A stretch of 64,000 bases of DNA from Phoronis australis (lineage: Eukaryota; Animalia; Phoronida). The notes beneath the pieces were generated by a model. It was not told the origin of the DNA. It saw nothing but the letters and a program-made list of their open reading frames with translations, and made no database searches. Positions 1,809 through 31,900 of this stretch are shown here, piece after piece. The stretch is from the NCBI GenBank assembly GCA_002633005.1, contig NMRA01000175.1:379831-443830 (forward strand). Reading direction: 5' to 3'. A program made the translations under genes and the position numbers. Position 1 is the first letter of the stretch, and each line of letters begins with the position of its first letter.

Positions 1809-1918
1809 GTGCCAAGACCTACCCGACTGCAAAGTTGTTGCTAGTAGCATAACTTTTGTTGACGATCCGTGTGGTGAAACAAAAAAATACCTCAGAGTTG
1901 ACTATCGTTGCGCGTTAG
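1809..1918 (+). CDS. ADGRL: Lectin (SUEL/RBL) C-half exon, variant [37 protein letters not shown]
   Basis: Pyrimidine tract + aag|G at 1808/1809; G|gtaagc at 1918/1919; 110 nt, phase 2 to 1; DPC and KYL motifs. Confidence 0.9.
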
Positions 1919-4900
1919 GTAAGCCCAATTGCTTGCTGAAACATGTTCTGGCTCTGTTGTTTGAAACACAGTCGCATAACTACCAAATTACCCCAAATTC
2001 TCTTTAGGAAAGCATGCCTTCCAAGATCGACAATCCTCCAATCATTCTTTCTTTCTTTACCTTTCTTGTAGTGTCCCCTGTTCATTTCTTGACCTTTTAC
2101 CTTTGACTTTTCACAATTTCTTTGCTTGGGTATCCAGCTGTACTGGACAGCATATCTGCGTTGTGGAAGCTAGCAGCGCACTCTTTGGGAATCCTTGCGA
2201 CGGGACTCTAAAATATCTGGAGGTCGAATATCAGTGTATCATAGGTAAGGGGAGGTGTGGCATGATTCGTCTAGCGCTACGGTAAAGTTACCCGAGTTGC
2301 ATGTAGCGAGACGTCGGAGAAAGTTGGCACCCTATTATCGCTGCCCATGAAATTACTAACGCAGAGAAATGTTTGTCCTGTTTAGCTGCTTTGTGATTTA
2401 ACAACTAGATTTTTGGGGTCTGAAGTCAAATAAGCATGTGCTTTCCATGTATCGAAAAGTATTGAATGAAACTGACTTTGTGCATGAGGCTGCATGTCTT
2501 CAAGGGGGCCGTTACATTTTTGTGAAGTTGTAGTTGGTCAATTGGGCATTTTCTTTGTCAAAGTAAGCAAAATATGCCAAGTTGACCAAATAGTCTTAAA
2601 AAAGGTGATGTTCCCCGAAACTATCTTGTTGGTACGTCATTGGTGTGGACTTGAAAAATCTCTATTTAATACCATTTTGACAAAATGTTGTGCATTGTTT
2701 TGTCCCTGTTGCAAGGTTTTTGCACAACTTTGTTAAATCCGATTGTTGCACATTGTATTTTTCATATCAAACATTTAAGAAACAAAAAGTCATGATGAAA
2801 TTTGAGAAAATTTTAGCAGTTTGCAACGTGTTAAAATTCTATCATGTTGCATGAAAACGAGCATTTGATAAAATTATCAACTTTCAGTTTAGTTAATACT
2901 TAAAAATTGTTTTCAGATACGGTATTTTTTCATCAAACTGGCTTGGAAATATCAACCAGAAACACTTTAATTACCTGGTCTGCACGCCACCTGTTGGCCA
3001 CATCATGTGACCCAATACAAGTCTGAAAAGATTTTTGCCCTGACCGGGACTCAAAATCAAGACCTTTGGCTAAACATGCATCTGAAATCTGTATTATTCA
3101 GGTTTCTCTATATGAAAAATCAATCAAAAAGTGCCTCTGGTATCCCGAGACAATTGATCTAAAAATTTTCTTTACTGGACACGGCATGAAGTCCCTGTTG
3201 TAACGCAGAACATCATTGAGCATATACAAGAAGTGACTAAACTCTGAGGAATCACAGGGACGGTCAGCTTTTGTCCTCTTATAAACTTTGCCAGCTCCGT
3301 CACGGCTAGTCTCTCAATTCCTACTGAATGTTGAAACCATTGCTTTCATGCCAACTCCAGTTTGATGGGATTTATTAGCTTATATTTTCTAGATTTAGCA
3401 TTTAAGCAGTCCTTAAAGATGAAGTGCTGCTTTAAGTGATTTTGTGGAAAGTCGTATCAACAAGGTGTGTTTGTGCAGAGGGTCAATTTGATGTTGGCTA
3501 GCTTATATAGTCTAACTAACTAACATGCTGAATATTTTCTTAACTTTCGCTCTTTATGACCACTCTCATTCAAAGCTAACCTAGTTTGTTCATTCTGTGT
3601 ATCAAGTCAGTCAACCATGATGCTTTGTTGTAGTTCAGCAATACTGGCTCAGATTAGTGCATGCTGTTCTGCTACACTGAGTCTAGTGGTTTTGAGAGAT
3701 ATTGCAGTACCTAGTTTAGCTCAACTGACTGTCATAAAATGATACAGGTTTTGCTGAGCCAGATGTCCTTTTCACAATTTAGGTGTTAAGCTGTACTGAC
3801 TCCGATGTAATGAATAGAGTGGGTTGTATTTAACAACACAGAAAGTCATCTTGAGATATTGCAGTAATTCAGCTGTAGTGTCTCAGGTGTGCTGTGCATG
3901 TAGTTCAATGCATGAGGCTCGATCTTTAGCCAGTCTTGCCTGCCTTCTCTCTCTAGGTGCAATGACAAGCTGCAATGTTCCGTTAGGGCTTCTAACACCT
4001 TCCTTAATGGCGATCCGTGCAGAGGCACTCCCAAGTATTTGGAAGTTAGATATAAATGTAAAGCAGGTAAGATTTTAACCAATAAGTTTAATAACTTTCA
4101 TTGATCTTTTCATTTCTCTTTCTACAACATTCTCTCTGGAGTTTTGCTCCCATGAACTAATTTATTTGAATACCAACGTGGATTCACAAAAAGTTCTAAG
4201 TTTTCAGTATTTTCCTCCCCCCGTTGTGGAGCAACTGTCTTCATTAGTATATATGTCTGACTCGAGATGTATTCTTTCTTTTGCCTTGTCTGCTCTGTAT
4301 TAGCATGTAGACAGTAACTGATCTGTAGCATTGACTAATAGCCTGTTTTGTTTTCTTTCTGTGGTTTGAGTTTGTTGCCTTGTGTCAACTGTTCTGCTTT
4401 AATGTAACAGTTGTAATTTTCTTTTGTTACAAAAATTTGTTTCTTAAATTTAAGTCTAGTTTAACGAGTGTATAGTATATTATTCTTCATTTTGAGTTGT
4501 CGTTTTAACAAGACATTTTCAGATTTCCTGTACTCATTAATATTTCTTTGTGATGTATAACATTTCTTCTAGTGACATGTGCATGGAGGGTTCATAAAGA
4601 TTGTCACTTGATTTCATAAAAGCCTTTCTTTTCCACAGTAGACAAAGATAAACCCAAGGGCAAGACCACTTTGTCCATGACAACAGAACTTACAACACTG
4701 CAAATGACAACACCGCAAACGACAACACCGCAAACGACAACACCGCAAACGACAACACCACAAACGACAACACCGCAAACAACAACACCGCAAATGACAA
4801 CACCGCAAACGACAACACCGCAAATGACAACAACACAATTGACTACTGAACAAACTACACAAAAACAAACAACAGCACCTGGTGAGATAACACGATTTCG

Positions 4901-28900: not shown

Positions 28901-31900
28901 TTATTCATGGAAAAATGTTTGTTTCAGTTAAATTTCACAACACAAAAAATATTTCTATCACACAAGCCTATTCATTGTTGGAACGATACTTCACCTGGAA
29001 AATTTTTCCCTTTTTTGTAATTGGTCATTCCAAGCCCTGGTTGCTTGTGTTGACTCAACACTTGTAGTTTTGGTGAATTGGTGTGGCCCTTTGTTGCTGG
29101 TATACCCTCTTGTTCTGTATCTAAGAAAATTCCATTTGTTTTTAAAGGTTTGAAATCAAAGTATTTTTGAAGGATTTATCTTTTAAAATGCTGAAAGGAT
29201 TTTAAGCACTTTGCGTAACCCAGTGCCCGTTTCAAATATTCTGTAGCATGTAAGGGGTCTGAAAAGTCTGCATTCACCATGGGCTTTTGCGGGAATGTGT
29301 GCTTTTGTAAGCTTAATATTTAATGATTCTTTAACGATAGTGGGCATTTTAACTTATAGTGTCGGCTTCTTCAGTGTTTTTGTCATCTAACATTCAGTAA
29401 TTCATAATTTTTATGTCACTAAGTGGTGGAGTTTTTCAACAATAACGGAACCCCAAACAGTTTAGAGGTGGCAACTTGTTCTTTGTAACATTTGGTCATT
29501 AGTATTTCTGTTGCTTGTTTAACGTGTAAAGACTGTAATCATTTTAACCACAGTTTCTGGGCATTGCTGTTCACTGTTGCAATGACAGTGTCACGGCATC
29601 TCCCTGTGCTGGATACTCCAGAATTTCTCTCTAACTTCTCACCCAATGCAGTGCACGGTTCCTTCAACTTAGGTTAGGGTGTCGGTGTGAGACTGTATTT
29701 AGGCAATTCATGTCCTTAAAGACTGCAGGCCCCTTAAATAGAATGCCAGTTGAAATGCAGCATTGTGGGAAATGATAATAAAAGTCATAATCTAAACATT
29801 ATCTCTTTGTGCTATGTCCAGATCATTGTACAAATTTTTTGCAATATGCTAAAATCTCACAAATTTAGGACAGAATATGGCAGCCAAGTGAAATATTTAT
29901 ATCTTATCATTTTTCATGAGATATAAGTAGCACAAAATAAAGGCTAGGCAAGGTTTAACTTGTATTACTATAGCTACTGTGGGAATTAACGTTACAAGCT
30001 TTTGAAAAATGAAAAAGTCAATTTTGTCAATTCTTTTTGTCTCAAATTAGTGCGATTTTATGACACTGAACAGCGAGGACAGCTTGATACATAGGTTGTA
30101 AACCACAGTTGAATGTGTGTGAAGTCCTGCTTCTTGCTGATGCTCTTAGTTGTATTGCATTAGTAGTAACAGTACTTTCTTTTTCCTTCCAGTACTTTCA
30201 ACGCCTGTGGAGCGGTCGGAAGAGAAAAAAGTCAGCACGCGGTCAAGTGCAACTGCATCCGAAATGTAAGTGAAGGACACATGGACTGCTGTTATGACCG
30301 TTGTGGTTCTGTACGGTAATGTGTGAATGGGTAACGGGGGTGTAGTTTTGCTGGGTGAGGTGTGACTGCAGTGATGAAGAATGAACACCTCCTGAAATAC
30401 CACAGAGCCACTGTGGCATTTACCCACAATGCCGCTCATCTGCAAGGCACTGCTTAGATCATTTAATGCTGTGCTCTTTTGCCATGCTAATAGCTATTTC
30501 AATTTGTCATTCTTTAGTTTGATACCAGGAAGTTGGTACTGACAAAGACAGTGAGTTACACAAGTTTGACATTCTGGGTGGGTCACGGTAAACGGAATGT
30601 CTTGTTATGTTAGGGATGAATTTGTTCCATTGTGTAGAATACACGTTTTGAATAAAAAGCATGATGAGAATTGTATAAATTAAGGCTTTTGCAAGTCTTG
30701 CCTGTTGACAAAATGAGTACAGTAAAGTTTCTTCAAATCAGAACACAATATGGCAGATCAGAAAATTTTATTTCATTCAAATTCTCAACAAGAGAAAACA
30801 AGAAAACAATACTCGGTTATTTGAAAACTTTGTTCAGAGTGTGATTGTCTTCAACAAACACAATGAAATTTTGAACTTTTTTGGCAATGCAGTAAGAGTT
30901 TGAAGAATGAAAAAGTGACAAATTTGGCCACTACTTTTTTTAGAATTTCAGGAAACTTGCTGTAACTTTTGATTTAGACCAATTTTTGGTCTCGACCTGT
31001 TTGTTATTCGGATTGGAAATTATCTCTGGACTTAAGAAGAATTGCCTGATTTTTATTGCTTGAGGCCATGTTCAGCACATAAAGGGACCCATCAGGTCAA
31101 GCAAAGTTATCAACCCTGGTCTCCAACAATGACAAGTGGTCTGTTCTTTCCAAGCCCAGTAGCCACTTCTAGTCAGAGCAAAGCCACTCTGGCACTTGCC
31201 GTTGAACGTAAATCATCGTGGTAATGATTAAACTCCTCGCGAGCAAAAGTGAAATGTCTGTGAACTGTCAGGGAGTGTGAGTTTTGTTGACAAAGAATTT
31301 TGAAATGTTTAAGGATTTTAACACACTTTCATTTACAAGAATAAATTGTAAACTGGACATCTGCTCAGAACTACGGACATTGTTTGTCAATCTCTGCCAT
31401 GGTTTATGTCCTTTCATTTATGGGGGTGTGCTTATTACATAACCTCATTTATGTATGTCACAGCGTGCCATTGTGGCCAATTTCTGTCATGAACAGTGCG
31501 TAAATTATTGTTGAAAATTGTGCAATTTCAGCAAAAATAAAGCAGAAATTGGAACCTGCCAAAATAGCACATTTTGTCACAACAAATTGCAAACCAGCGC
31601 ATGTCACAAACTTGTGCAAGTGTCAGGTTGGCTCAAAGAAAAAGTTGAGACCAGGACCCAGATCTCTGAACTCAGAATCGACTCAGACTCCAGACTTTTA
31701 CATGCTGGACGATTCAAGTACAAATCTTTGTGTTCACTAAAAGTATGCGATGCAGTTGGTCAATTTCTGAGACAAGTTTTGAGTACAAATATTTAGACTC
31801 AAGGCCCAGTATTATCTAAGGTAAGTGGTCTCAAGCAGGTTTTCCCACAAGGTGGGTGGATAACACATTTAGACCATTCCGTGCATCTTAATGGTTATTG

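What the first reader, a model, noticed from the sequence alone, without database searches (positions are those of the whole stretch)
1809..31820. Whole-gene combinatorial code: ligand head x stalk length x ICL3 output
The three modules are frame-independent: 3 lectin exons x mucin in/out x 36-nt exon in/out x 16 ICL3 states gives an arithmetic upper bound of 192 in-frame proteins from one locus, before NAGNAG and tail variants. Inference: one gene could tune recognition, reach or mechanical leverage, and signalling output separately.
Basis: inference. Interest (0 to 1): 0.75.

Follow-up and report, generated by a model that had tools for sequence, protein, structure and literature searches.

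The report
Modular splicing of an invertebrate latrophilin
This marine-invertebrate adhesion receptor gene (a latrophilin) is spliced with alternative halves of its lectin head and with or without extra stalk, so it likely makes a modest, tissue-dependent set of receptor forms rather than the 192 that arithmetic allows.

Summary
The locus is a lophotrochozoan latrophilin (ADGRL/Cirl) gene. The frame arithmetic holds: 192 of 192 combinations are open. Biology is narrower. RNA reads show two of three lectin half-exons used singly (L1, L3; L2 by depth only), the 36-nt exon in and out, and the 1.8-kb mucin exon skipped, or present by depth in one of three runs. In the third intracellular loop (ICL3) all 30 shown reads leaving TM5 go to cassette I4; I1-I3 and the loop without any cassette have no shown joint (17 rows hidden). 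So about 12-24 forms are supportable, and independence is untested. The same three sites vary in gene catalogues of other invertebrates: lectin swap in 13 of 22 species, ICL3 in 21, stalk in 10. Multi-site splicing that changes ligand binding and G-protein choice is published for mouse latrophilin-3 (PMC10830413). The lectin-half swap I did not find in print (six searches); this scan noted it before in arthropods, and here it extends to molluscs, brachiopods, nemerteans, echinoderms and hemichordates, with three copies in this gene.

The parts
1809..1918 (+). L1: alternative exon, C-terminal half of RBL/SUEL lectin domain
   Evidence: Pfam SUEL 47-80/80 E 4e-8; joint to HRM exon in 2 reads of X3 and one X1 contig
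2138..2244 (+). L2: alternative lectin half exon
   Evidence: Pfam SUEL E 3e-9; no joint shown; depth about 4x in X4 where L1 and flanking bins are 0
3957..4066 (+). L3: alternative lectin half exon
   Evidence: Pfam SUEL E 5e-11; joint to HRM exon in 3/3/2 reads
4639..6435 (+). Optional mucin-like stalk exon, 598 aa, 36% Thr, no Cys, 15-nt tandem repeats; tandem acceptor
   Evidence: depth about 0.4 of HRM exon in X3, 0.06 in X2, 0 in X4; X1 contig over 5827-6393; skipped in L1->HRM and L3->HRM joints; its own joints not shown
8123..8158 (+). Optional 36-nt Thr/Ser/Glu stalk exon
   Evidence: joint 8158->9901 in 4/4/2 reads; skipped in 10 reads and a contig
9901..10214 (+). Constitutive exon: Thr/Pro linker and HRM domain
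   Evidence: Pfam HRM E 5e-6; joints
11061..14466 (+). Five GAIN/GPS exons: 11061-11252, 11809-11992, 12222-12368, 13181-13421, 14343-14466
   Evidence: Pfam GAIN fragment and GPS; X1 contig spacing matches the summed exon lengths, 694+2 = 696; these inner joints were not seen singly
15702..17892 (+). TM1-TM5 exons: 15702-15805, 16364-16620, 17007-17085, 17725-17892
   Evidence: joints in all three read runs; Pfam 7tm_2
18256..18333 (+). I1: candidate ICL3 cassette, unproven
   Evidence: open, symmetric, GC 0.51; no joint shown; bin depth raised in X4 only (2.18 vs 0.54-1.29 background)
19180..19329 (+). I2: candidate ICL3 cassette, unproven
   Evidence: open, symmetric, GC 0.45; no joint shown; depth implies at most about 0.3 inclusion
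20425..20526 (+). I3: candidate ICL3 cassette, unproven
   Evidence: open, symmetric, GC 0.46; no joint shown; depth implies at most about 0.2 inclusion
22328..22426 (+). I4: Ser-rich ICL3 exon, present in every shown ICL3 joint; tandem acceptor, proximal site used
   Evidence: 17892->22328 in 14/13/3 reads, 22426->22988 in 10/7/16 reads, both in X1 contigs
22988..23156 (+). TM6-TM7 exon
23566..30265 (+). Tail exons 23566-23697, 23879-23914 (36 nt), 30193-30265
   Evidence: joints in reads and X1 contig; contig arithmetic 509/510
30518..30550 (+). Candidate 33-nt tail exon; would bring an immediate stop (short tail or decay); unproven
   Evidence: stop on inclusion; skipped in 18 shown reads
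31929..32857 (+). Last coding exon (308 aa tail); 3' UTR runs on to about 33900
   Evidence: joint 30265->31929 in 5/6/7 reads, depth and contig to 33906; 30% identity to chiton latrophilin tail, E 1e-17

Best explanation
This is an invertebrate latrophilin gene whose transcripts carry one of three alternative halves of the lectin head, optional stalk exons and mostly one ICL3 form, which likely gives a regulated set of roughly ten to twenty-five receptor forms rather than a free 192-way code. Shown: L1 and L3 are each spliced singly to the HRM exon; the 36-nt exon is in or out; the mucin exon is skipped in some molecules; TM5-I4-TM6 is the ICL3 form in every shown joint. Inferred from depth: L2 is used, the mucin exon is included in about 40% of molecules in one run, and head choice differs between runs. 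Inferred from frames: double lectin inclusion shifts the frame, so such transcripts would be lost (decay not tested). Inferred from published structures: the swap exchanges loop 2 of the sugar pocket (positions equal to mouse 116, 117, 119 differ; Lys120 is kept) while the named teneurin and TOL-1 contact residues lie in the shared half, so it would fine-tune rather than replace ligand recognition; the 598-aa Thr-rich exon would, if O-glycosylated, lengthen the tether between lectin and GAIN; ICL3 inserts would shift G-protein preference as exon 24 does in mouse LPHN3.
For: Joints and depth: summed L1+L2+L3 depth is close to HRM depth in each run (19.2 vs 17.6, 12.5 vs 14.2, 7.6 vs 8.3), as expected for exclusive use; run profiles differ (X2 mostly L3, X3 L1+L2, X4 L2+L3; mucin 0.06/0.40/0). 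ICL3: 30 of 30 shown reads leaving TM5 enter I4, 33 of 33 shown reads entering TM6 come from I4. Same three sites vary in relatives. Mouse LPHN3 has five principal splice sites and six principal cytoplasmic variants; mouse adhesion GPCR genes average 18-19 variants above 1% (PMC6667449). Residue map; contact residues.
Against: Coverage is thin (about 8-18x on exons, 18-19% of each run read) and the three read runs come from one study of unknown tissue, so rare or tissue-restricted forms are missed. 17 and 13 joint rows were hidden; the weakest read-only row shown had 36 reads, so hidden I1-I3 joints could be sizeable. X4 has only 3 TM5->I4 reads against 16 I4->TM6 reads and raised depth over I1, which fits real I1 use (but TM4->TM5 also has only 3 reads there). 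I1-I3 have exon-like GC (top 1.5-6.7% of intron windows), and the nemertean Lineus has three ICL3 cassettes annotated in 5 of 8 states. Depth bins are noisy (intron bins reach 2.7-3.4 in X2, X3; L3 scores 0 by depth in X3 despite 3 joint reads).
Confidence: 0.7

Rival explanations
1. Full combinatorial code: all three modules, including 16 ICL3 states, are chosen independently and most of the 192 proteins are made, each with its own binding, reach and output.
For: 192 of 192 frames open; I1-I3 have GT-AAG donors, open frames and exon-like GC; 7 distinct donors pass in the ICL3 region against about 2 expected, though the threshold was set on the candidates; Lineus uses three ICL3 cassettes combinatorially in its gene models.
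Against: 1 of 16 ICL3 states shown by joints; no TM5->TM6 joint shown; depth caps I2 and I3 at about 0.2-0.3 in all three runs; no likeness of I1-I4 to any of 248 fetched proteins; no test of independence or function.
Confidence: 0.07
2. Coupled programme: a few tissue-specific splicing programmes pick head, stalk and loop together (for example mucin with L1 or L2 in one tissue, L3 with a short stalk in another), giving only a handful of fixed isoforms.
For: The run with the mucin (X3) is also the run richest in L1 and L2; the L3-rich run (X2) has little mucin.
Against: L1 also joins the HRM exon directly, without mucin; X4 has L2 depth with no mucin; three runs cannot show coupling.
Confidence: 0.18
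3. Mostly neutral variation: the alternative exons are tolerated splice noise in disordered linkers and the forms are functionally alike.
For: Stalk and ICL3 inserts are low-complexity and not conserved in sequence; named teneurin and TOL-1 contacts lie outside the swapped half; a single latrophilin lectin binds rhamnose only weakly (PMC2430599).
Against: All three lectin halves keep every Cys and Lys120 at 47-52% mutual identity, i.e. they are old and intact; paired halves persist as separate classes across bivalves and across echinoderms; the sites recur in many phyla.
Confidence: 0.05

Closest known systems
Mouse latrophilin-3 (Adgrl3) multi-site splicing, PMC10830413 (sections 5 and 6 read, plus passages)
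   Same: Splice sites in the ectodomain that regulate ligand binding, a cassette in ICL3 (E24) whose loss shifts coupling from Gs to G12/13, variable tail; cell-type-specific use.
   Different: Mouse inserts are short cassettes beside the lectin, not swapped halves of the lectin itself; no 600-aa optional mucin; one ICL3 cassette rather than up to four; this gene has no olfactomedin domain.
RefSeq isoform sets of invertebrate latrophilins (Lineus longissimus, Asterias amurensis, Acanthaster planci, Lingula anatina, Mercenaria, Ptychodera, Onthophagus and others)
   Same: Lectin C-half swap (13 of 22 species), ICL3 inserts at the same place (21 of 22), stalk cassettes behind the lectin (10 of 22); all three clearly in Lineus, A. 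amurensis and Acanthaster.
   Different: Two lectin halves per species were seen there, three here; their stalk cassettes are 9-27 aa (up to 348 aa in Biomphalaria), here 598 aa of repeats. RefSeq full-length combinations may be artificial (PMC6667449), so they show events, not combinations.
Drosophila Cirl isoforms (10.1101/2023.01.11.521585, passages)
   Same: Single invertebrate latrophilin gene with functionally distinct splice forms.
   Different: Eight transcripts, six proteins; the studied switch is intron retention giving 1TM forms; no lectin swap in the passages seen.
Dscam1-type mutually exclusive exon arrays (recalled; named in PMC6629964 passage)
   Same: Tandem duplicated exons each encoding half of a binding domain, one used at a time.
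   Different: Three alternatives in one cluster instead of dozens in several; no docking-site pairing found; no evidence of stochastic per-cell choice.

Membership tests
Latrophilin / ADGRL (invertebrate type) | N-terminal RBL/SUEL lectin domain | tested here: met
   C-half in three copies, each above the Pfam cut-off; the N-half exon lies upstream of the window (an X1 contig runs 678 letters further 5')
Latrophilin / ADGRL (invertebrate type) | HRM, GAIN/GPS and secretin-type 7TM in order | tested here: met
   HRM, GPS, 7tm_2 above cut-off; GAIN fragment E 8e-5, below cut-off on one exon
Latrophilin / ADGRL (invertebrate type) | No olfactomedin domain; nearest relatives are latrophilins | tested here: met
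   Lectin exon joins HRM exon directly; top hits are Capitella (80%) and mollusc, nemertean, echinoderm latrophilins
Mutually exclusive exon cluster | Tandem homologous exons of equal phase whose joint inclusion breaks the frame | tested here: met
Mutually exclusive exon cluster | Each exon used singly in transcripts | tested here: inconclusive
   L1 and L3 by joints; L2 by depth only; no L-L joint among shown rows
Mutually exclusive exon cluster | An exclusion mechanism (steric, RNA docking, decay) | tested here: inconclusive
   Introns of 219 and 1712 nt are too long for steric exclusion (recalled limit about 50-60 nt); 81 inverted pairs, no shared docking arm evident among the 25 shown; decay not testable
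Dscam-like combinatorial isoform code | Most arithmetic states are expressed | tested here: not met
   1 of 16 ICL3 states by shown joints in three runs of one study; hidden rows and other tissues leave room
Dscam-like combinatorial isoform code | Independent or stochastic choice between modules | not testable with these tools
   151-nt reads cannot link modules kilobases apart in the mRNA
Dscam-like combinatorial isoform code | Isoform-specific binding or signalling | not testable with these tools
   needs binding and G-protein assays

The most novel reading that the evidence does not exclude
Invertebrate latrophilins carry an undescribed, bilaterian-wide splice switch that swaps the sugar-pocket half of the lectin domain, and in this animal a three-way head, a 600-residue optional mucin stalk and several ICL3 cassettes are chosen per cell type largely independently, so that one gene yields dozens of receptors differing in ligand, reach and G-protein output, doing by splicing what vertebrates do with three paralogues.
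Probability: 0.15. Interest if true: 0.75.

Novelty: new variant of a known kind. Interest (0 to 1): 0.45.

Why it matters
Latrophilins control synapse formation, embryo polarity and mechanosensing, and their invertebrate ligands are poorly known. A natural swap of half the ligand-binding domain, kept in at least six invertebrate phyla, and a natural on/off 600-residue tether give ready-made, matched pairs for testing what the lectin pocket binds and how ectodomain length sets signalling. The number 192 itself carries little weight: such products can be written for any gene with symmetric exons.

Tried and rejected
No genome is held for this window, so the upstream lectin exon and any further copies 5' of base 1 could not be read. 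Homologue search with the last exon found nothing at E<=0.001 among longer proteins (weak evidence). The HMMER search with the HRM exon gave 33 distant hits, none from this species. No annotated protein of this species was found, so no same-species isoform list. BLAST of the mucin, 36-nt, I1-I4 and 23879-23914 peptides against 248 fetched proteins: no hits at E<=1 with low-complexity masking. A splice-site matrix trained on 18 donors and 16 acceptors of this gene is over-fitted: it scores the used exons L1 and e36 as low as I1-I3, so it cannot judge them; some training sites were supported by contig arithmetic only. Tree of 50 lectin halves, 33 columns (Chamberlinius dropped, no pattern match): resolves paired classes within bivalves and within echinoderms but not deeper (25 of 47 inner branches open); AU tests reject none of four groupings, and L1+L2+L3 as one clade scored higher than the free tree (p 0.625), so one ancient origin versus repeated duplication is undecided, and the third copy or all three may be lineage-specific. 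Inverted-repeat scan gave no docking-site candidate. The run index listed no indexed RNA holder; the raw-read runs were laid instead. Look-up of look-alike stretches in other scanned genomes: none. No structure or complex was predicted.
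Full report
Gene. Bases 1809-32857 on the + strand encode a latrophilin-type adhesion GPCR: SUEL lectin half, HRM, GAIN fragment, GPS and secretin-type 7TM all score against Pfam exon by exon (13 exons scanned, 8 with a relevant family). The TM2-3 exon's best relatives are latrophilins of Capitella teleta (80%), bivalves, Owenia and nemerteans, and tail exons match nemertean and chiton proteins best, so the animal is most likely a lophotrochozoan; I cannot name it. The signal peptide and first lectin half lie upstream of the window, and no genome is held. RNA reads are on the + strand.

Arithmetic. L1, L2 and L3 are 110, 107 and 110 nt and only one at a time keeps the frame. 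The mucin exon, the 36-nt exon and I1-I4 are symmetric. With the tail that reads support, 192 of 192 combinations are open, 1084-1839 residues from the lectin half on. This is a ceiling, not evidence: four constitutive exons are symmetric as well, and open symmetric pseudo-exons of like splice score occur about twice per phase per 5 kb in control introns and on the reverse strand.

Reads. Four public runs under the same species label were laid: X2-X4 (raw reads, one study, 18-19% of each read, tissue unknown) and X1 (contigs, another study, RNA status a guess). They come from other individuals (many allelic differences). Head and stalk (15 joints shown, 13 hidden, the weakest read-only row shown having 8 reads): L1 to HRM in 2 reads and a contig, L3 to HRM in 8 reads, 36-nt exon to HRM in 10 reads. 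No L2 or mucin joint is shown. By depth, background-subtracted, L1/L2/L3 are 4.6/2.1/12.5 in X2, 6.0/6.5/0 in X3 and 0/3.9/3.7 in X4, sums close to the HRM exon (17.6, 14.2, 8.3); the mucin is at 0.06, 0.40 and 0 of HRM depth, and an X1 contig covers 5827-6393. These estimates are rough: intron bins reach 2.7 and 3.4 in X2 and X3, and L3 scores 0 in X3 although 3 joints show it. ICL3 (15 shown, 17 hidden): all 30 shown reads leaving TM5 go to I4 and all 33 entering TM6 come from I4, as do the X1 contigs. No I1, I2, I3 or TM5-TM6 joint is shown. The hidden rows matter here, since the weakest read-only row shown has 36 reads. Depth limits I2 and I3 to about 0.2-0.3 or less in all runs and I1 to about 0.2 in X2 and X3, but fits high I1 inclusion in X4. 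I1-I3 have exon-like GC, so they may be minor or tissue-restricted exons. Tail: one path is shown, including a 36-nt exon at 23879 and skipping 30518-30550 and the 31820 donor. If the supported events combine freely: 3 heads x up to 4 stalks x 1-2 loops = 12-24 forms.

Relatives. I listed the members of 20 of the 85 hit clusters, chosen for having several annotated isoforms, dropped fragments and non-RefSeq members, and compared isoforms within 22 species. The lectin C-half is swapped in 13 (Lingula, Lineus, two Asterias, Amphiura, Acanthaster, Antedon, Ptychodera, Ruditapes, Mercenaria, Mya, Onthophagus, Anoplophora; Liolophura probably a 14th), ICL3 inserts vary in 21 (all but Lingula) at the same place, and cassettes behind the lectin vary in 10. 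The selection is biased to multi-isoform genes, and RefSeq combinations may be artificial (PMC6667449, passages). Paired halves are 42-58% identical within species and L1-L3 47-52%. The tree groups classes across bivalves and across echinoderms, so those duplications are old, but it cannot decide between one bilaterian origin and several; L1+L2+L3 as one clade is not rejected.

Mechanism. The swapped segment aligns to residues 68-100 of the solved mouse latrophilin-1 lectin chain, which I take as Cys96-Cys128. It holds loop 2, which primarily forms the sugar pocket, with Gly117, Thr118, Tyr119 and Lys120; Glu42, Tyr63 and Gln77 lie in the shared half (PMC2430599, passages). L1, L2 and L3 keep all four Cys and Lys120 and differ at 116 (G/D/R), 117 (E/G/G) and 119 (K/L/P) (mapped through a fish LPHN3 row). 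Teneurin contacts named for LPHN3 (S38, R44, D49, D67, C36-C66; PMC7195488, passages) and TOL-1 contacts of worm LAT-1 (F69, D79; 10.1101/2023.05.04.539414, passages) fall in the shared half by my numbering, though a teneurin glycan inserts into the sugar pocket. Inference: the swap tunes glycan or secondary contacts rather than replacing the partner. The mucin exon adds 598 residues, 36% Thr, no Cys; O-glycosylation and extra reach are inferred, not shown. For ICL3, loss of exon 24 of mouse LPHN3 shifts coupling from Gs to G12/13 (PMC10830413 section 6), a direct precedent for output tuning.

What is known. Multi-site, cell-type-specific splicing of latrophilins at ectodomain, ICL3 and tail is published (PMC10830413 sections 5-6; PMC6629964 passages); mouse adhesion GPCR genes average 18-19 variants above 1%; Drosophila Cirl has eight transcripts (10.1101/2023.01.11.521585, passages). 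I found no description of the lectin half swap in searches (listings only) nor in passages of PMC6422961, PMC6510184 and PMC13197933; subscription papers and supplements were not seen, and I recall, unchecked, that beetle latrophilin isoforms have been reported. Three earlier notes of this scan describe the two-exon swap in arthropods (consulted after I had my reading); I saw the same swap in two beetles' isoforms but did not check their loci.

Verdict. Observation partly confirmed, interpretation partly supported. A real, sample-dependent modular splicing of head and stalk, an ICL3 dominated by one form in the samples seen, and an untested claim of independence. New variant of a known kind; interest 0.45, carried by the three-way lectin swap, its spread across phyla and the very large optional mucin, not by the number 192.

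Noticed in passing
window 23879-23914: A 36-nt AT-rich (GC 0.25) symmetric tail exon is included in reads of all three runs and the X1 contig; whether it is ever skipped is not shown.
   Followed up: partly
window 30518-30550: Candidate 33-nt exon with good splice sites that would stop the protein at once, giving a short tail like the short-tail isoforms annotated in echinoderms and nemerteans; no joint shown.
   Followed up: partly
window 5977: The X1 contig lacks 24 nt of the mucin repeats, an in-frame length polymorphism, so stalk length also varies between alleles.
   Followed up: no
window 4636-4641, 14340-14345, 22325-22330: Tandem (NAGNAG) acceptors; the proximal site is used at I4 in all shown joints and at the GPS exon by contig arithmetic. 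Biomphalaria isoforms differ by one residue near the same GPS-exon position.
   Followed up: partly
window 32840-32857: The tail ends in Ser-x-Cys, as do Capitella, Owenia, Lineus, Tubulanus and Lingula latrophilins; resembles a PDZ-binding end (recalled, untested).
   Followed up: no
window 21670-22270; 1-340; 420-570 and 10300-10460: Intronic repeats heavily covered by reads from elsewhere, on one or both strands; the first lies just upstream of I4 and holds the single N at 22023.
   Followed up: no
window 37300-41300 and 54600-57100: By eye, degenerate mobile-element remnants (retroelement-like and DNA-transposon-like); not tested with any tool.
   Followed up: no
P0103/P0106 (Tubulanus), P0097 cluster (Lineus): Nemertean latrophilins have two or three ICL3 cassettes; in Tubulanus two appear as alternatives in the annotated forms.
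   Followed up: partly
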